Source: an uncultured Clostridia bacterium
GTDB taxonomy: Bacteria; Bacillota; Clostridia; TANB77; CAG-508
Length of the DNA stretch: 41,502 nt
Assembly: GCA_947623475.1 (NCBI GenBank)
Contig: CANQGV010000001.1
Location: 1-41,502, forward strand
Direction: 5' to 3'
Shown: positions 26,148 through 41,502 of the stretch, piece after piece
Layout of the letters: each line of letters opens with the position of its first letter
Position numbering within the stretch: the stretch's first letter is position 1
Notes under the pieces: generated by a model
What the model was told of the DNA's origin: nothing
Databases searched by the model: none
The model's input: only the letters and a program-made list of their open reading frames with translations
Program-made: the position numbers and the translations under genes

Positions 26148-26190
26148 AAAGATGTTCAATTGCATATTTTGAACATCTTTTATTTTTTTT
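26148..26190. terminator. bidirectional intrinsic terminator; 3' end of the large minus-strand operon
   Basis: 12-bp stem AAAGATGTTCAA (26148-26159) / TTGAACATCTTT (26169-26180) followed by a T-run. Confidence 0.65.
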
Positions 26191-26824
26191 ATTCGATGAA
26201 TTCATTTGAGACAAATATATAACTATCTCCTTGTTTTTTTAATGTTACTTTTATTAACTTTGAGTCCGGATAATCTTTTAATTTTACATATACTATATAG
26301 TTGTCACCTTCTTTGACTCCCACTCTACAATTAACTTTTGAGTAACCTTCTCCAGAAAACGATTTTGCATATAATTCTCCATCTTCTATAAAAATCCAAT
26401 CTTTTAATTTTGACTCTATATCATTTATTTCTTTACCTGTTTTTTCTTTAATTAGATCTTTGACATCTTCTTCTTTCACAGCGACTAACAATGGAACTTG
26501 TGGCAATGTTCCAATTTCTTCCATAATCTTTTCATTGTATTCTTTTTTTTGATTATCTGATAGTTCTTTACTTATTCCTGCTCCTCTATATAATAGTTGA
26601 TTTATATTTATATCTGATGCATCTTGATATTCACAGAAAAGAAAACAATTATTTTTTTCGTCTTCCAAAAAATCCTTAACTTGATTTTTCTCCTCTTCTG
26701 TTAAATATGTTTCGCTTTCTTGTTTTTCTTCTTCTATTTTCTTTTGTTGATTTACTAATACTACAACAAATAAAACTATAACAAGTATACACGATATAAT
26801 TATATATATATTCTTTTTTTTCAT
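26189..26824 (-). CDS. signal-anchored hypothetical protein (211 aa), last gene of the operon
   Basis: MKKKNIYIIISCILVIVLFVVVLV anchor and an extracytoplasmic acidic domain. A GAGGA SD lies upstream. Confidence 0.6.
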   Translation of the reverse strand: MKKKNIYIIISCILVIVLFVVVLVNQQKKIEEEKQESETYLTEEEKNQVKDFLEDEKNNCFLFCEYQDASDININQLLYRGAGISKELSDNQKKEYNEKIMEEIGTLPQVPLLVAVKEEDVKDLIKEKTGKEINDIESKLKDWIFIEDGELYAKSFSGEGYSKVNCRVGVKEGDNYIVYVKLKDYPDSKLIKVTLKKQGDSYIFVSNEFIE

Positions 26825-26850
26825 AATTAAATCATTCCTCTTATATTTTT

Positions 26851-38358: not shown

Positions 38359-40974
38359 TTATCTCCGCAAAGCTCCTTTAAGTGCTGTATCTCCTAGTTT
38401 TACTGCTTTTTTTGAAACTCCTTTAACTTGTTCTGTTGCTTCTTTTCCTAACATTGCACCTGTTGTAAAACCTAAAGCTCCCATTTTAAATACATTAGAG
38501 TAATCGTCACTTGCTAAGCCTGCTCCTATACCTATCATTCCAAATACTCCTGCTCCTAATCCTCTTGCTGCAAGTACTGATGCTTTTTTTGCTGTATTTA
38601 GATTTAAATATCTTCCTCTTACTCTTGCTAATCCTCTTATTCTTGGCATATTCATGATTTCACTAAGTATTGATGGGTCTTTTTCTTTTGTTGTATTGCT
38701 TAGTTTTGGAATTTGTCCTGATGGTAAACCATTTGCTGATATGCTATATCCACCTCCTGGGCTTCCTCCACCTGTATTTGAATATCCATTACCACCTGAT
38801 GAAGATAGTCTTCTTCTTGTTCCACCTCCACTAGATGTATCTTGTGAACTAGAGTTTAGTCCTTGTATATTTTGTCCTAATGCGTTCATTCCTGTTACAT
38901 TTCCTTCACTAAAAGCACCTAGGTTTTTAGGGGCATCTGAATCTGCTGTTCTATTTCCCCCTGCTAGTCTTACTTTACTATTGCTAGCTTCGCTATCTCC
39001 ATTAACTCCTGCTTGCATTGCATTTGTTAATCCTGTTGCACCTTTTTTCATATTTGTCATCATACTTCCAAACATAGCTCCTGCTGCTAGTCCTTGTGAG
39101 TTTCCTCCTCCTTGTGATTGGAAGTTAAATAGTTTTTTAATAAAGCTTTCTGCTTCCATTAAGAATCCTATTGCTACTACTGCATATAATATATTTACTT
39201 CCATTAAGTCTACTGACATTAATACTAATATTTTGTATACTAATAAATGTACAGGTTGTAACATTAAATTAAATATGTACTCTCTCATCCATGTATTTAA
39301 TGCTTGTGCTTGTCCATCTTTTACTTTATCTATTGGATATGTTAACCCTACTAATGGCGCTACTACTGTTAAAAAGGCTAAATAAATTGTCCTTTTTAAA
39401 TATTGCCATGAGAACATTATTGTATACCATATCAATACTAGGTATACCATACAATATCCAAATCTAAGTCCTAATTCTTTTGTTCTTCTATAATGTACAA
39501 TCTCTGTTCTTACTCTATTCATAAGTTCATCGCCTTCAACAGATATATGAACATCACAAACATCTATTAATAAATTTGTTAATGTTAAAAGAACACTCAT
39601 AATAAAATGAATCATTAGTATTACTACTACTGCTATAACCCAGTCTTTTATCATAGTTTTATATTTTGCTTGTTCTTCTGCTGAAGAAGATATTATCATT
39701 CTTATTCCTAAATATACTAATACTATTAAAAGTCCTACTAAAGCTACATCTCTAAGTGTTACATACCATTTTGCTATTATTGGTTGTAGTACAGCAGCTG
39801 CATTTCCACCTTTGAAATCTTCAGCTATTGCTAATAGATTATCCTCACTATTTTGGTCATCAATTCTATCACCTGATAAGTTTGTTGCTCTTAACAAATC
39901 TATTGTTGTGTTTATTGTATTGTAATCTATTTCTGTACCTGAATCATTTGTTACAAATGGGTTTCCTATTTGTTTACTTGAGTCAATAAAGTTTACATCA
40001 AATGTTGGTATTTTATTTGAAAATATGGCTCCTGGTCCATAGTATATTAGGGATACTGGCTCTTGAGCTGTACCAAATCTATATGTTCCTCCAGTTTTTT
40101 CAACAAAAGCATATATAAAAGCATCTAATCCTCTTTCGCCCAATATTCTTTTAAATAATGTTGTTGGTCTTCTTTCTGCTACTGCTTTTGGTGATCCTGG
40201 TAACATTATTTCTTGCAATGTATTTACTACGGCATCTCCTATTCCACATACAAAATCTATAATTTCTCCTGCTAATTTTTCAGGAATATCTTTAAACCAG
40301 TTTAATATATCCTCTGCCCATCCATATAAGGTTTGCCACCATCCATGGTCTTCTAGTTTCAGAATTTCATCTGCTCTTTTCTTTTCTTCATCTGTTAATT
40401 CTGTTACTAATGTTCCGTTTTCTCCTGTAATTTCACCAACTGCATTTTCTACTTGTCTTTCTTGTTCTTCTGTTTTTTCACCTTGTAATCCTTGTTCTTC
40501 TTCAACTTTACTATATGTATAATCATTAAAAGCATCTTGTTTTTCTTTATCAGTTCTATAGTCGTTTCCTTGCTCTTGATTAAATGGTTTATAATAATTT
40601 AAATATCCTGGTATTATGTCCTTTTCAAGCCAATTTTTGTATTCTGCTTCATCCGTTACATTAGGTTTTCCATCACTTGTATAACTAGAATCCTTTCTTG
40701 CATTATCAATATAATCATTTAATTCTTCCATATCTATTTGACTTTTTCTTTCTTCGGGTAAATTGTCTACTATTTTTTTTCTTAAAATTTTTTCTTGTTG
40801 CAATGTATATTGATCATCGATATTATCAATCGTACCTTTGCTATCTTCTACCATAGAATAATCACTACTGATACCCGCATAAATAGACTTTGGTATTACT
40901 GCACTTAGTAATATCAATGTTATAGTAAAAGCAATTATTAAGTTAAACATTATTTTTATTGTTTTTGCCTTCAT
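38359..40974 (-). CDS. polytopic membrane protein, paralogue B (0-frame product 871 aa)
   Basis: It shares the motifs CGIGDAVVNTLQEIMLPGSPKA, IFSNKIPTFDVNFI, AEEQAKYKTMIKDWV, LTYPIDKVKDGQAQALNTWMREY and the glycine zipper GLGAGVFGMIGIGAGLASDD with paralogue A. It has a larger acidic ectodomain insert. Confidence 0.75.
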   Translation of the reverse strand: MKAKTIKIMFNLIIAFTITLILLSAVIPKSIYAGISSDYSMVEDSKGTIDNIDDQYTLQQEKILRKKIVDNLPEERKSQIDMEELNDYIDNARKDSSYTSDGKPNVTDEAEYKNWLEKDIIPGYLNYYKPFNQEQGNDYRTDKEKQDAFNDYTYSKVEEEQGLQGEKTEEQERQVENAVGEITGENGTLVTELTDEEKKRADEILKLEDHGWWQTLYGWAEDILNWFKDIPEKLAGEIIDFVCGIGDAVVNTLQEIMLPGSPKAVAERRPTTLFKRILGERGLDAFIYAFVEKTGGTYRFGTAQEPVSLIYYGPGAIFSNKIPTFDVNFIDSSKQIGNPFVTNDSGTEIDYNTINTTIDLLRATNLSGDRIDDQNSEDNLLAIAEDFKGGNAAAVLQPIIAKWYVTLRDVALVGLLIVLVYLGIRMIISSSAEEQAKYKTMIKDWVIAVVVILMIHFIMSVLLTLTNLLIDVCDVHISVEGDELMNRVRTEIVHYRRTKELGLRFGYCMVYLVLIWYTIMFSWQYLKRTIYLAFLTVVAPLVGLTYPIDKVKDGQAQALNTWMREYIFNLMLQPVHLLVYKILVLMSVDLMEVNILYAVVAIGFLMEAESFIKKLFNFQSQGGGNSQGLAAGAMFGSMMTNMKKGATGLTNAMQAGVNGDSEASNSKVRLAGGNRTADSDAPKNLGAFSEGNVTGMNALGQNIQGLNSSSQDTSSGGGTRRRLSSSGGNGYSNTGGGSPGGGYSISANGLPSGQIPKLSNTTKEKDPSILSEIMNMPRIRGLARVRGRYLNLNTAKKASVLAARGLGAGVFGMIGIGAGLASDDYSNVFKMGALGFTTGAMLGKEATEQVKGVSKKAVKLGDTALKGALRR
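38364..38367 (-). other. putative +1 recoding site CGG_A (context AAA-GGA-GCT-TTG-CGG-A)
   Basis: In-frame CGG two codons before the stop of ORF 38359..40974. GGA at 38366-38364 opens the frame that reads GDKYDDEVKNKLEDYKW..., collinear with paralogue A. Confidence 0.6.
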
Positions 40975-41004
40975 TATTTTTCCTTTCGTCTATTTATTCT
41001 TTTT

Positions 41005-41502
41005 TTAATTTATATTAGTTGGATTATTTCTACTTTGCCTTATACTTCCTTCTGGGTTTTCACTAGTTTCACGCATTTTATTTTCTTCTTCTTTACTTCT
41101 ATCTTTAGTGTATTCATTTCTACTAGAGTCTTCTGTTATTTCATGTCTGTTTTTCTTTTCTTCTTTTTCATTATCTTCTGTTTTTTCATTTTGTTTTGAT
41201 TCTCCTGTATTTCCTTTTCCAAATTGTTCTTCATGTTCTTTTGTAGTTATCAAGTTATTAACCTTTTCTGGTGTTATTCCTCCTTGTATTGGTTGTTCTC
41301 TTATTCTTGTATTGCCTTCTAAGTTCAATGTTGATTTTATTCCTTGCATTGCTCTTTTTGCTGCTTCTTCATCTCCAACCATTTTTAGTATTTGATTATA
41401 TAACTCTTCTTCTCCTCCTTCTGCTAATATTTCTCCTCTTGATGTTACTTTGTTTGCAAAGTTTATAATATTTCCTGCTTCTTCTAATGTATATCCTTTT
41501 TC
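41005..41502 (-). CDS. C-terminal part of a third tail-module protein (probable paralogue C; gene continues beyond right edge)
   Basis: The frame is open from the window edge: EKGYTLEEAGNIINFANKVTSRGEILAEGGEEELYNQILKMVGDEEAAKRAM. This resembles the tail module of A and B. A disordered E/K/N-rich tail follows. The track ATG at 41382 is internal. Confidence 0.55.
   Translation of the reverse strand, partial: EKGYTLEEAGNIINFANKVTSRGEILAEGGEEELYNQILKMVGDEEAAKRAMQGIKSTLNLEGNTRIREQPIQGGITPEKVNNLITTKEHEEQFGKGNTGESKQNEKTEDNEKEEKKNRHEITEDSSRNEYTKDRSKEEENKMRETSENPEGSIRQSRNNPTNIN

What the first reader, a model, noticed from the sequence alone, without database searches (positions are those of the whole stretch)
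26189..41502. More than 15 kb single-strand operon of exclusively envelope proteins: T4SS-like parts list without any visible ATPase, relaxase or integrase
From the right edge down to the strong terminator at 26148-26190, at least nine ORFs follow each other on the minus strand. The gaps are 14-36 nt, each with an SD. Every product is membrane-embedded or signal-anchored.

The parts list is:
- three tandem paralogous polytopic proteins (C partial, B, A);
- a 301-aa anchored NTF2-like/Ig-like protein;
- a 3D-anchored five-module wall hydrolase;
- a 444-aa anchored NTF2-like protein;
- an anchored C39-like peptidase;
- a 211-aa anchored protein.

The list and order recall the envelope half of Gram-positive conjugation systems. 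In those, a VirB6-like TcpH/PrgH/Orf15 comes first, then a VirB1-like PrgK/TcpG/Orf14 hydrolase, then VirB8/TcpC-like NTF2 proteins.

This block differs in several ways:
- the channel-like protein is triplicated;
- the hydrolase is far more elaborate;
- a C39-like peptidase is included;
- nothing mobile (integrase, relaxase, coupling ATPase, VirB4) lies in the 15 kb visible;
- the downstream flank is ordinary housekeeping DNA with the same composition.

It could be the distal end of an integrated conjugative element. It could also be a domesticated or novel wall-spanning apparatus for secretion, cell-cell contact, DNA uptake or spore-related wall remodelling.
Basis: inference. Interest (0 to 1): 0.75.

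Follow-up and report, generated by a model that had tools for sequence, protein, structure and literature searches.

The report
Envelope half of chromosomal type-IV secretion system
This block is the membrane-and-wall half of a type IV secretion machine that sits at fixed chromosomal sites in hundreds of uncultured gut Clostridia, carries pilin genes and has no DNA-transfer genes nearby, much like the essential system recently described in Patescibacteria.

Summary
There are eight tightly packed minus-strand genes, read as ten ORFs because two genes are interrupted. Gaps are 14-36 nt with Shine-Dalgarno sites, every complete product is membrane-anchored, and the block ends at a bidirectional hairpin.

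The missing ATPase is a contig-end artefact, because the window is a whole 41.5-kb contig. In more than 70 syntenic relatives the same genes are preceded by 2-4 VirB2/TrbC-like pilins, a PrgI/VirB3-like protein, a TraC/TrsD-like protein and a VirB4 ATPase.

The cluster lies at two conserved housekeeping positions. One is the window's own: parAB, DUF4446, a tRNA-Ser pair, the cluster, then DnaJ and a BcrAD-type activase. No coupling protein or relaxase was seen within 10 kb, and integrases were rare and non-recurrent.

VirB4 is 82% identical across species, more conserved than ParB. The envelope parts encoded in the window are only about 30% identical.

An AlphaFold model shows the 444-aa protein is a triple NTF2-like, VirB8/TcpC-like protein. 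The polytopic proteins are weakly VirB6-like.

The best reading is a domesticated, probably pilus-forming Gram-positive T4SS. Its closest analogue is the Patescibacteria T4SS. I found no description of it in Clostridia. Its function is inferred, not shown.

The parts
41005..41502 (-). 3' end of a third VirB6-like paralogue ('C'). Only its 166-aa hydrophilic C-terminal tail is present; the gene is cut by the contig end.
   Evidence: The frame is open to the window edge. The tail is 26% identical over 151 aa to the tail of B2, E = 7e-12. Relatives carry up to 3 tandem copies.
38359..40974 (-). Paralogue B, an 871-aa polytopic VirB6-like membrane protein: TM core, linker and a Gly/Ala-rich hydrophobic segment.
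   Evidence: 38% identical to A. Six hydrophobic segments. Sub-threshold matches to T4SS_pilin, pLS20_p028, MMCAP2_0566 and Mbov_0396.
37590..38358 (-). Detached C-terminal domain of B. It comprises the 220-aa ORF 37590-38252 plus about 35 conserved codons upstream in the +1 frame that contain no start codon.
   Evidence: 39% identical to A residues 646-739. The same split is present in a relative 76% identical to A, L090, with protein-level conservation of the startless stretch.
35354..37573 (-). Paralogue A, a 739-aa polytopic VirB6-like protein with an N-terminal anchor, an outside loop, a 5-TM core and a large C-terminal helical domain.
   Evidence: Family of 5014 50%-identity clusters. 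TrbL_4 hits in 6 of 27 members and T4SS_pilin hits in 23 of 27. AF2 model pLDDT 76; best geometric PDB match is TrwI/VirB6 7o3v_F, TM 0.47, prob 0.84, E about 1. Lies directly after VirB4 in relatives.
34434..35339 (-). 301-aa bitopic protein with an NTF2-like ectodomain; a VirB8-like scaffold candidate.
   Evidence: N-terminal TM segment. Present in 81 of 88 sequences searched (87 loci plus the window), directly after the polytopic gene in most. hhalign to the third NTF2 domain of the 444-aa family gives prob 96%, E = 2.9e-9. No Pfam or PDB sequence hit.
29261..34415 (-). Giant anchored peptidoglycan hydrolase, about 1718 aa when repaired, in the VirB1 role. It has a TM anchor, a 3D-like motif, M23 (33182-33484), NlpC/P60 (32672-32869), M15_4 (31493-31732) and a divergent C-terminal lysozyme-like region. 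A 1-nt frameshift near 34040 interrupts it.
   Evidence: Pfam domains; LytM/EnvC PDB hits. Frameshift and colinearity with the L004 1630-aa hydrolase. The N-terminus is continuous in the close relative L090. The 3D domain is not detected by Pfam.
27910..29244 (-). 444-aa bitopic protein with three tandem NTF2-like domains (VirB8/TcpC-like).
   Evidence: AAGGAG Shine-Dalgarno site before the ATG at 29244. AF2 pLDDT 89, pTM 0.79. Foldseek hits: OrfG of ICESt3 7pkw (prob 0.95), TcpC 3ub1 (prob 0.97) and CagV 6iqt. Present in 76 of 88 sequences searched (87 loci plus the window).
26851..27873 (-). 340-aa anchored C39_2-like cysteine peptidase (domain at 26989-27366); an accessory wall-hydrolase module.
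   Evidence: PF13529 E = 2.2e-11. C39_2 recurs inside hydrolases of relatives: L064, weakly in L001, and next to the polytopic gene on C. botulinum plasmids fused to a 3D domain. No ABC-transporter partner.
26189..26824 (-). 211-aa N-terminally anchored protein with no family assignment; a lineage-specific accessory gene.
   Evidence: Single TM segment at residues 6-24. No Pfam or NCBIfam family. BLASTP matches in only 3 of the 88 sequences searched (87 loci plus the window).
26147..26181 (.). Bidirectional intrinsic terminator hairpin shared with the convergent DnaJ-domain gene.
   Evidence: 13-bp perfect stem, dG -12.8, z = -6.2.

Best explanation
**What it is.** The block 26189-41502 is the distal, envelope-spanning part of a type IV secretion system (T4SS) gene cluster of the Gram-positive (MPF-FATA-like) kind. 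The cluster has become a fixed chromosomal feature of a large clade of uncultured, low-GC gut Clostridia. At least one carrier belongs to the order TANB77.

**Full cluster, as seen in syntenic relatives.**
1. 2-4 VirB2/TrbC-like pilins
2. PrgI (VirB3-like)
3. TraC/TrsD-like protein
4. VirB4 ATPase
5. 1-3 VirB6-like polytopic proteins
6. a roughly 300-aa NTF2-like protein
7. a giant multi-domain peptidoglycan hydrolase
8. a roughly 440-aa triple-NTF2 protein
9. variable small hydrolases and anchored proteins

The window starts inside step 5.

**Inferred mechanism.**
- The hydrolase and the C39_2 peptidase open the wall locally.
- The VirB6-like proteins, together with VirB3 and VirB4, form the membrane platform.
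- The two bitopic NTF2 (VirB8-like) proteins scaffold the channel through the wall zone.
- VirB4 drives extraction and polymerisation of the VirB2-like pilins into a pilus or conduit.

**Inferred function.** No coupling ATPase or relaxase accompanies the cluster. It is therefore most likely not a self-transmissible conjugation module. It is more likely a domesticated contact or pilus apparatus, used for uptake or exchange of macromolecules or for attachment to other cells. Comparable cases are the Patescibacteria T4SS and the ComB and Ced DNA-import systems.

**Shown versus inferred.** Gene content, synteny, folds and conservation pattern are shown. Pilus formation, direction of transport and substrate are inferred.
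For: **The cluster extends beyond the window.**
- The window is a whole contig.
- Relatives with the same downstream flank (DnaJ, 1440-aa BcrAD/DUF2229) carry pilins, PrgI, TraC-like and VirB4 upstream.
- The core gene order is conserved across the loci recovered (79 from the genome scan plus 8 from contig look-ups), out of at least 563 species genomes that matched.

**Component identities.**
- Pilins pass Pfam gathering scores: TrbC 45.5 bits, T4SS_pilin 47.2 bits.
- VirB4 matches the CD1110-family VirB4 at 1e-58.
- The 444-aa protein is triple NTF2-like, and its conjugation-related structural matches are TcpC and OrfG.
- The 301-aa protein shares that domain.
- The polytopic proteins give TrbL_4, Mbov_0396 and pLS20_p028 hits and a TrwI/VirB6 structural match.

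**Chromosomal fixation.**
- There are two conserved housekeeping contexts, with 33 and 37 loci.
- Flanking genes are ribosomal proteins, gidAB, parAB, M16 peptidases, Dac and similar.
- A tRNA-Ser pair lies at the upstream edge in 18 of 18 context-1 loci.
- Integrase appears in only 2 of 107 flank gene clusters, and there is no recurrent second ATPase.
- VirB4 is more conserved than ParB (p-distance 0.18 versus 0.26) and co-diverges with it (Mantel r = 0.37, p = 0.0015).
- GC differs from the flanks by only 2.5 points.

**Not phage.** There is 1 hit in 2.9 million IMG/VR contigs.

**Literature.** The same architecture is described for Patescibacteria, where it is essential.
Against: - The upstream half is not in the window. 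Its presence in this genome is inferred from synteny.
- Two of the eight genes are interrupted here: the hydrolase and paralogue B. This copy may therefore be partly decayed.
- The VirB6 assignment rests on sub-threshold sequence hits and a Foldseek match with E about 1.
- Only 10 kb on each side of relatives was inspected, so a coupling protein or relaxase could lie elsewhere in the genomes. Patescibacteria do have VirD4 homologues at distant sites.
- Related clusters occur on large Clostridium plasmids (VirB4 42% identical). The family therefore has mobile members and could still move DNA.
- No expression or functional data exist.
Confidence: 0.8

Rival explanations
1. The block is the distal end of a still-mobile integrative conjugative element (or an integrated plasmid). 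Its relaxase, coupling protein and integrase lie beyond the contig end.
For: - The contig ends inside the cluster.
- In context-1 relatives a tRNA-Ser pair, a classic ICE target, borders the cluster.
- Plasmid-borne cousins exist in C. botulinum and C. beijerinckii.
- Cluster GC is slightly higher than the flanks.
Against: - In 33 relatives sharing the window's downstream flank, the upstream neighbours are tRNA-Ser, a 498-aa membrane protein, DUF4446 and ParB, with no mobility genes.
- Integrase occurs in 2 of 107 flank gene clusters, and there is no recurrent extra ATPase.
- The position is retained across species whose ParB differs by up to 40%.
- VirB4 is 82% conserved, which is unusual for a drifting mobile element.
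Confidence: 0.07
2. The block is a chromosomally fixed DNA-transfer machine. It would mediate conjugation-like chromosomal exchange or DNA import, comparable to the archaeal Ced system or Helicobacter ComB, with any DNA-processing proteins encoded elsewhere.
For: - The parts list (VirB2-like pilins, VirB3, VirB4, VirB6, VirB8-like) without a coupling protein is the same minimal set as Ced and ComB (literature).
- VirB4 gives a weak CedD match.
Against: - No DNA-binding or DNA-processing gene is conserved in the cluster.
- In Southlakia the analogous T4SS remains essential independently of ComEC-mediated competence.
- This is a functional sub-case of the best explanation rather than a structural rival.
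Confidence: 0.25
3. In this particular genome the cluster is a decaying remnant. The frameshifted hydrolase and the split paralogue B would mean the apparatus is no longer functional.
For: - The hydrolase frameshift is absent from the close relative L090 (A-like protein 76% identical).
- B-like paralogues are split at different sites in L090 and L091.
Against: - The other six genes are intact, with Shine-Dalgarno sites.
- The B split is inherited, and its startless stretch is still conserved at protein level.
- A single-base indel in a draft assembly of unknown type (the related genomes recovered are all MAGs) may be an assembly error.
- Paralogue A is intact and could cover B's role.
Confidence: 0.15
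4. The block is a prophage tail or lysis module, or a sporulation-specific wall-remodelling operon.
For: - PHROG hits of the hydrolase to endolysin and tape-measure peptidase domains.
- A weak M23 hit to SpoIIQ.
- The host is a spore-former.
Against: - The hits are confined to generic catalytic domains.
- No capsid, tail or terminase genes occur in any relative.
- There is no match in 50,697 phage genomes and 1 hit in IMG/VR.
- The cluster partners are VirB4, VirB2 and VirB3, not sporulation genes.
Confidence: 0.02

Closest known systems
Patescibacteria (CPR) chromosomal T4SS, e.g. Southlakia epibionticum SEML1_0006-0019 (Wang et al. 2023, PMC10633639; Quinonero-Coronel et al. 2025, PMC12102498)
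   Same: - Monoderm T4SS encoded on the chromosome, origin-proximal. Here it sits next to parAB and gidAB; there, next to dnaA.
- Arrays of divergent VirB2-like pilins (PF04956, PF18895).
- A TrsD/TraC-like protein, PrgI/VirB3, an MPF-FATA-like VirB4, and VirB6.
- Peptidase and lysozyme genes downstream.
- No relaxase or coupling protein in the cluster.
   Different: - The hosts here are spore-forming Clostridia with a conventional wall, not ultrasmall epibionts.
- Two clear VirB8-like NTF2 proteins are conserved here, whereas they are mostly undetected in Patescibacteria.
- The hydrolase here is a single giant multi-domain protein.
- Whether the VirB4s are sister clades could not be tested.
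- Essentiality is unknown.
Gram-positive conjugative T4SSs (pCF10 Prg, pIP501 Tra, pCW3 Tcp, ICEBs1, ICESt3, C. difficile CTn CD1110 family)
   Same: - VirB4 matches the CD1110 family at 1e-58.
- PrgI-like VirB3.
- A polytopic VirB6 analogue.
- Bitopic NTF2/VirB8-like proteins (TcpC and OrfG structural matches).
- A multi-domain VirB1-like hydrolase comparable to PrgK, TcpG and CwlT.
- Similar gene order.
   Different: - No coupling protein (PcfC, TcpA, ConQ), no relaxase and no integrase nearby.
- VirB2-like pilins are present; reviews state these are absent from Gram-positive T4SSs.
- All NCBIfam matches fall below their curated cut-offs.
- The chromosomal position is fixed across species.
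T4SS-derived DNA-import systems: archaeal Ced (CedA/A1/A2/B) and Helicobacter pylori ComB
   Same: - Chromosomal and domesticated.
- Lack a coupling protein and a relaxase.
- Built from a VirB4-like ATPase, a VirB6-like polytopic protein and VirB2-like pilins.
   Different: - No detectable close sequence relationship.
- Different envelopes.
- DNA import is not shown here.
T4SS-like clusters on large Clostridium plasmids (C. botulinum p12/29 type, NZ_KT897275-80; C. beijerinckii NZ_CP107023)
   Same: - TraC-like protein (30% identical), VirB4 (41-42%) and polytopic protein (22-25%) in the same order.
- Followed by a C39_2-containing wall hydrolase with a 3D domain.
- MOB-suite finds no relaxase.
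   Different: - Plasmid-borne.
- Only one weak pilin candidate.
- No members of the 301-aa or 444-aa NTF2 families at E < 0.01.
- Sits next to an actin-like partition gene.

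Membership tests
Type IV secretion system (any class) | A VirB4-family ATPase encoded in the cluster | tested here: met
   VirB4 is not in the window because the contig ends. In 85 of the 88 sequences searched (87 loci plus the window) a roughly 655-aa VirB4 lies immediately upstream of the polytopic gene. Pfam: P-loop_TraG, DUF87, AAA_10. NCBIfam: CD1110-family VirB4 1e-58, TIGR00929 2e-27, both below curated cut-offs.
Type IV secretion system (any class) | A VirB6-like polytopic inner-membrane protein | tested here: inconclusive
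   Six or more TM segments. TrbL_4 hits in 6 of 27 members, best E = 5e-4, below the gathering score. Sub-threshold hits to Mbov_0396, pLS20_p028 and MMCAP2_0566. The AF2 model's only low-rmsd PDB matches are TrwI/VirB6 (TM 0.47, prob 0.84) but with E about 1. No PDB sequence hit.
Gram-positive (MPF-FATA/FA) T4SS | Bitopic VirB8-like proteins with an NTF2-like fold | tested here: met
   The 444-aa protein has a TM helix plus three NTF2-like domains (pLDDT 89). Foldseek hits OrfG 7pkw, TcpC 3ub1 and CagV. The 301-aa protein shares the domain by hhalign, prob 96%. The match is at fold level only; there is no sequence-level membership.
Gram-positive (MPF-FATA/FA) T4SS | A VirB1-like multi-domain peptidoglycan hydrolase | tested here: met
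   M23 (80 bits), M15_4 (43 bits) and NlpC/P60 (22-26 bits, borderline) in the window. Relatives add Phage_lysozyme2 at about 101-102 bits.
Conjugative T4SS / ICE | A coupling ATPase (VirD4, TcpA or FtsK-like) and a relaxase associated with the cluster | tested here: not met
   None is present in the window. In 10-kb flanks of about 80 relatives, no relaxase or coupling-protein family appeared among the Pfam families listed (25 of the 75 that matched were shown) or among the 10 largest unlabelled ORFs. Only 7 non-recurrent Walker-A ORFs of 300 aa or more were found. Sites elsewhere in the genomes were not searched.
Conjugative T4SS / ICE | Integrase plus att repeats, and variable presence between close strains | tested here: not met
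   Phage_integrase occurs in 2 of 107 flank gene clusters and is not recurrent. No boundary repeat was found in L004. Two fixed housekeeping contexts exist. Strain-level presence/absence was not tested.
Patescibacteria-type pilin-bearing chromosomal T4SS | An array of VirB2-like pilin genes next to virB3/virB4 | tested here: met
   In relatives, 2-4 pilin-like ORFs occur in 65 of 83 loci. L004 pilins exceed the gathering scores of PF04956 and PF18895. This part is not visible in the window.
Patescibacteria-type pilin-bearing chromosomal T4SS | A TrsD/TraC-like protein (homologous to the VirB4 N-terminus) and a PrgI-like VirB3 upstream of VirB4 | tested here: met
   Precomputed PF26593 (TraC-like) and PF12666 (PrgI) hits are present in relatives. 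PrgI scores 26.0 bits against a cut-off of 27 in my own scan. By BLASTP, TraC-like is conserved in 80 and PrgI in 78 of the 88 sequences searched (87 loci plus the window).
Patescibacteria-type pilin-bearing chromosomal T4SS | VirB4 falls inside, or sister to, the Patescibacteria VirB4 clade | not testable with these tools
C39 bacteriocin-processing peptidase | A C39 domain fused to, or next to, an ABC exporter with double-glycine substrates | tested here: not met
   The match is to PF13529 (C39_2), not PF03412. There is no ABC transporter in the window or in relatives. The domain recurs inside wall hydrolases alongside beta-lactamase2 or 3D domains.
Prophage tail/lysis module | Neighbouring capsid, tail or terminase genes and phage homology | tested here: not met
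   PHROG hits are confined to hydrolase domains and a low-complexity tape-measure-like stretch. There is no megablast hit to phages and 1 IMG/VR hit.

The most novel reading that the evidence does not exclude
Uncultured, reduced-genome gut Clostridia (TANB77-like) may carry the Firmicute counterpart of the essential Patescibacteria T4SS. It could even be the donor lineage or a sister lineage. On this reading it is a VirB4-powered, VirB2-pilus-forming conduit, vertically inherited near the origin of replication. The bacteria would use it to attach to other cells and draw macromolecules (DNA, nutrients or signals) from them. That would imply a partner-dependent lifestyle and could help explain why the clade has resisted cultivation. 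The hypervariable envelope half seen in this window would be the partner- or phage-facing surface, under diversifying selection.
Probability: 0.15. Interest if true: 0.9.

Novelty: new variant of a known kind. Interest (0 to 1): 0.62.

Why it matters
- **It contradicts a current generalisation.** Reviews state that VirB2-type pilins are absent from Gram-positive T4SSs, with Patescibacteria as the single exception. They also present the Patescibacteria system as unique among monoderms. Here the same architecture is found in true Clostridia. It is fixed in the chromosome of at least 563 species-level genomes, and its VirB4 is more conserved than ParB.
- **It offers a comparative handle.** This second lineage can be used to study how a conjugation machine is domesticated. 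It may also bear on where the Patescibacteria system came from.
- **The hosts are of clinical interest.** The carriers include TANB77, an uncultured order linked to immunotherapy response. A conserved surface machine with hypervariable exposed parts is a plausible determinant of their ecology, immune visibility and cultivability.
- **Practical note for annotation.** These genes are currently unnamed 'hypothetical proteins'. The two interrupted genes here need read-level checking.

Tried and rejected
**Searches that found nothing useful**
- Exact-sequence look-ups of three window proteins, done to extend the contig, found nothing.
- The listing of cluster members gave no accession or organism name.
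- Megablast of the 15-kb block against plasmids and phages gave no match.
- PDB sequence and profile searches for the polytopic, 301-aa and 444-aa families gave only noise.
- The homologue search for the 301-aa protein returned only 3 proteins. It could not be modelled with a useful alignment, so hhalign was used instead.
- No supplementary tables were held for the TANB77 paper, so assigning the loci to TANB77 rests on one genus name, UMGS1663.
- No paper combining TANB77 with T4SS terms was found.

**Tool results that failed to support a feature**
- PHROGs gave only generic hydrolase and tape-measure low-complexity hits, so the prophage reading was rejected.
- The consensus terminator scan missed the AT-rich hairpin. 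Folding recovered it.
- Pfam did not detect a 3D domain in the hydrolase N-terminus, even after repairing the frameshift.
- Pfam did not detect Phage_lysozyme2 in the window's C-terminal region.
- A search for att-like direct repeats around a complete relative cluster (L004) gave only low-complexity and paralogue repeats, plus the tRNA-Ser genes.

**Readings rejected**
- The TANB77 'conserved pilin' paper describes a Tad pilus cluster, not this system.
- The sporulation-apparatus reading was rejected. No sporulation gene is linked to the cluster, and the M23/SpoIIQ similarity is generic.

Full report
**1. What is in the window**

The window is AT-rich (GC about 29%) DNA from a spore-forming Clostridia bacterium. 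Evidence for that host includes SpoIIR, a GerM-like protein, SpmA/B-like proteins, MurA and a phosphoglucomutase. The window is a complete NCBI contig of 41,502 bp (P0001 and P0018 both have longest contig 41502).

From 41502 down to 26189, ten ORFs of at least 120 aa lie head to tail on the minus strand. Intergenic gaps are 14-36 nt. AGGAG-like Shine-Dalgarno sites precede the real starts. The 461-aa ORF actually starts at the ATG at 29244, giving 444 aa, behind an AAGGAG site.

The operon ends at a perfect 13-bp hairpin at about 26147-26181, flanked by an A-run and a T-run. Folding gives dG -12.8 kcal/mol, z = -6.2. The hairpin also serves the convergent DnaJ-domain membrane protein gene. 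A consensus terminator scan missed it because the stem is AT-rich.

Simple hydropathy finds an N-terminal anchor in each small protein and six or more hydrophobic segments in the two large ones.

**2. Corrections to the gene list**

Two genes are interrupted.
- **Hydrolase.** ORFs 34005-34415 and 29261-34048 overlap in different frames. Removing one G near 34040 gives the sequence ...VVEDLGGALGMANFIDIF.... The repaired 1718-aa protein then aligns continuously (38% identity, residues 9-808) with the single 1630-aa hydrolase of relative L004. The closest relative, L090, has an uninterrupted N-terminus. The lesion is therefore specific to this assembly: either an error or a recent pseudogene.
- **Paralogue B.** B (871 aa) and the 220-aa ORF downstream are two pieces of one ancestral gene. 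The 220-aa ORF is 39% identical to the C-terminal domain of A. This split is inherited. L090, whose A-like protein is 76% identical, has the same stop. It also has the same roughly 35 start-less codons in the +1 frame, conserved at protein level. A more distant relative, L091, has its B-like copy split at a different place.

Only a 166-aa hydrophilic tail of 'paralog C' is visible. The block therefore holds eight genes.

**3. What the products are**

- **Hydrolase domains.** Pfam gives M23, M15_4 and a borderline NlpC/P60/CHAP for the hydrolase.
- **C39-like peptidase.** The 340-aa protein matches C39_2.
- **Polytopic proteins.** Both give a weak T4SS_pilin-like hairpin. NCBIfam gives sub-threshold matches to transmembrane proteins of Mycoplasma ICEs and of pLS20 conjugation. 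TrbL_4 (VirB6 family) is hit weakly by 6 of 27 family members. An AlphaFold model of A (pLDDT 76) has TrwI/VirB6 of the R388 T4SS as its only low-rmsd PDB matches. That match has TM 0.47 and probability 0.84 but E about 1, so it is suggestive only.
- **444-aa protein.** It modelled with high confidence (pLDDT 89, pTM 0.79) as a TM helix followed by three NTF2-like domains. Foldseek returns the VirB8-like OrfG of ICESt3, TcpC of pCW3 and CagV, among generic NTF2 folds.
- **301-aa protein.** Its family shares that domain (hhalign probability 96%, E = 2.9e-9).
- **Not confirmed.** Pfam detects neither the proposed 3D domain nor a C-terminal lysozyme domain in this window. Relatives do have Phage_lysozyme2 at that end.

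**4. The decisive evidence: context in relatives**

Homologues of protein A are numerous. There are 1699 hits in the word-indexed search and 5014 50%-identity clusters in the exhaustive search. Contigs encoding them, plus a scan of one genome per GTDB species, gave 87 loci. The genome scan matched at least 563 species genomes, all of the best 80 from uncultured gut Clostridia.

BLASTP labelling and gene maps show one conserved order:
1. 2-4 VirB2/TrbC-like pilins
2. PrgI (VirB3-like, about 115 aa)
3. TraC/TrsD-like protein (about 405 aa)
4. VirB4 ATPase (about 655 aa)
5. polytopic protein (one copy in 75 loci, two in 5, three in 1)
6. the roughly 300-aa protein
7. a big hydrolase (about 720-1870 aa, variable modules)
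8. the roughly 440-aa protein
9. variable extras

The pilins pass Pfam gathering thresholds, and the ATPase is a VirB4. The window starts inside step 5. So the 'missing ATPase' is a contig-end artefact.

**5. Chromosomal, not mobile**

There are two flanking contexts.
- **Context 1 (33 loci, and the window's own).** The order is gidA, gidB, parA, parB, DUF4446, an optional roughly 498-aa membrane protein, tRNA-Ser(tga), tRNA-Ser(gct), the cluster, DnaJ on the opposite strand, an optional patatin, then the 1440-aa BcrAD/DUF2229 activase.
- **Context 2 (37 loci).** The order is YqeY, M16 peptidase, M16 peptidase, the cluster, a CHAP protein, then a D-Ala-D-Ala carboxypeptidase.

Evidence against mobility:
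- A Pfam scan of 107 representatives of all unlabelled flank ORFs shows housekeeping families. Phage_integrase appears in only two non-recurrent cases. No relaxase or coupling-protein family appears among those listed.
- The ten largest unlabelled ORFs are not mobility genes either.
- Only seven non-recurrent Walker-A ORFs exist besides VirB4.

Evidence for vertical inheritance:
- Across species VirB4 diverges less than ParB (p-distance 0.18 versus 0.26) and co-varies with it (Mantel r = 0.37, p = 0.0015).
- Cluster GC is only 2.5 points above the flanks.
- The tRNA-Ser pair at the upstream edge hints at an ancient integration.

Phage origin is excluded for practical purposes.

**6. A striking conservation gradient**

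Over 52 non-redundant loci, mean pairwise identities are as follows.

| Component | Mean pairwise identity |
|---|---|
| VirB4 | 82% |
| PrgI | 58% |
| TraC-like | 53% |
| Polytopic protein | 33% |
| 301-aa family | 32% |
| 444-aa family | 30% |

The window therefore holds exactly the fast-evolving, envelope-exposed half of the machine.

**7. Comparison with what is known**

*Gram-positive conjugative T4SSs.* They share VirB4, VirB3, a VirB6 analogue, VirB8-like NTF2 proteins and a multi-domain VirB1-like hydrolase. They always come with a coupling protein and a relaxase. According to a 2025 review they lack VirB2 pilins, with 'one recently identified exception', the Patescibacteria T4SS.

*Patescibacteria T4SS.* This system is chromosomal and often next to dnaA. 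It has pilin arrays, TrsD, PrgI, an MPF-FATA-like VirB4 and VirB6, with peptidase and lysozyme genes downstream. It has no relaxase. It is essential for epibiotic growth of Southlakia. The Clostridial cluster matches that description almost point for point. It adds two clear VirB8-like proteins.

*Literature search.* I found no paper describing this system in Clostridia.

*Carrier taxonomy.* One carrier, isolate UMGS1663 (locus L054), belongs to a genus placed in the uncultured, reduced-genome order TANB77. The 'conserved pilin' reported for TANB77 is a Tad pilus, which is a different system.

*Plasmid cousins.* Related clusters exist on large C. botulinum and C. beijerinckii plasmids typed as non-mobilizable. 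They carry TraC-like, VirB4 (about 42% identical), a polytopic protein and a C39_2+3D hydrolase. This shows that the C39-like peptidase is a regular wall-hydrolase module of this T4SS lineage. It also shows that the lineage has extrachromosomal members.

**8. Mechanism and function**

Shown: the gene content, order, folds, chromosomal fixation and conservation pattern.

Inferred from established T4SS biology:
- The hydrolases open the wall.
- VirB6-like proteins, VirB3 and VirB4 form the membrane platform.
- The NTF2 proteins scaffold across the wall zone.
- VirB4 polymerises VirB2-like pilins into a pilus or conduit.

Because no coupling protein or relaxase accompanies the cluster, self-transfer is unlikely. 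My rough split of functional readings is:

| Functional reading | Rough probability |
|---|---|
| Contact-dependent uptake or exchange (DNA or other macromolecules) | about 0.4 |
| Mainly adhesion or pilus | about 0.2 |
| Protein export | about 0.15 |
| Conjugation with remote or unknown DNA-processing genes | about 0.15 |
| Other | remainder |

In this particular genome, the frameshifted hydrolase raises the possibility of partial decay.

**9. Verdict**

- The T4SS-like interpretation is right, and the 'domesticated apparatus' alternative is favoured over the ICE alternative.
- The 'no ATPase' headline is an artefact of the contig end.
- The system is a new variant of a known kind: a pilin-bearing, relaxase-less, chromosomally fixed T4SS in Firmicutes. 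Its full significance rests on relatives rather than on the window itself.

Noticed in passing
window 38253-38365 (junction of B and the 220-aa ORF); L090 1600-1730: Paralogue B stops here. About 35 codons then follow in the +1 frame with no ATG, GTG or TTG. These codons are conserved at protein level in a relative whose A-like protein is 76% identical. Substitutions by codon position are 7/6/12, with 6 synonymous changes and 13 mostly conservative ones. This could be programmed +1 frameshifting or an inherited, slowly decaying split.
   Followed up: partly
window ~34035-34050: A single extra G (GGAGGCCC) breaks the giant hydrolase inside a D-x-GG-A-x-G-x(3-4)-IDIF motif resembling a 3D domain. 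The close relative L090 is uninterrupted here. This is either an assembly error or a recent pseudogene. Pfam does not call a 3D domain even after repair.
   Followed up: partly
L004 3565-3760 and the equivalent position in 17 other context-1 loci: A tRNA-Ser(tga) and tRNA-Ser(gct) pair sits immediately upstream of the pilin genes in 18 of 18 loci examined. This may be the ancient integration site of the ancestral element. No integrase or att repeat remains.
   Followed up: partly
window 36947-37132 (A residues 148-209) and 39586-39786 (B residues 397-463): The polytopic VirB6-like proteins contain a two-helix hairpin. It scores as a VirB2-type pilin (PF18895 in 23 of 27 family members) and, for B, also against NCBIfam's 'Mbov_0395 pilin-like' model. 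This could be a fused pilin-like module or generic TM-hairpin similarity.
   Followed up: no
L089 (C. botulinum plasmid p12/29, NZ_KT897275.1) 6892-17723: Large Clostridium plasmids typed as 'non-mobilizable' carry a cousin cluster. Its order is an actin-like partition protein, a weak pilin candidate, a TraC-like protein, VirB4 (41-42% identical), a polytopic protein and a C39_2+3D hydrolase. These plasmids may have an unrecognised transfer or pilus system.
   Followed up: partly
window 25434-26147 (+): A DnaJ-domain protein with a C-terminal TM segment lies convergent to the operon. It is conserved at this position in the context-1 relatives but absent from context 2. It is therefore probably a flank gene, not part of the system.
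   Followed up: partly
L004 11849-12212: The polytopic protein of this relative carries five tandem 57-75-nt repeats. They encode a proline- and acid-rich unit (approximately PEEGDPDFIGPPRPPEE) in its linker. Linker length is highly variable in the family (740-1320 aa).
   Followed up: no
L001 1327-2784; L004 2022-3518 (not in the window): A roughly 490-500-aa hydrophobic protein (weak DUF6057 match) lies next to the cluster in at least 16 loci. It usually lies between DUF4446 and the tRNA-Ser pair. It may be an unrecognised accessory membrane component.
   Followed up: no
window 20925-25247 (-): A 1440-aa fusion of two BcrAD/BadFG-type ATPase domains with DUF2229 (a CoA-enzyme activase) is the conserved downstream landmark of the locus in many species.
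   Followed up: no
window 240-315 (-): tRNA-Arg(cct) is the only RNA gene or Rfam match in the window.
   Followed up: yes
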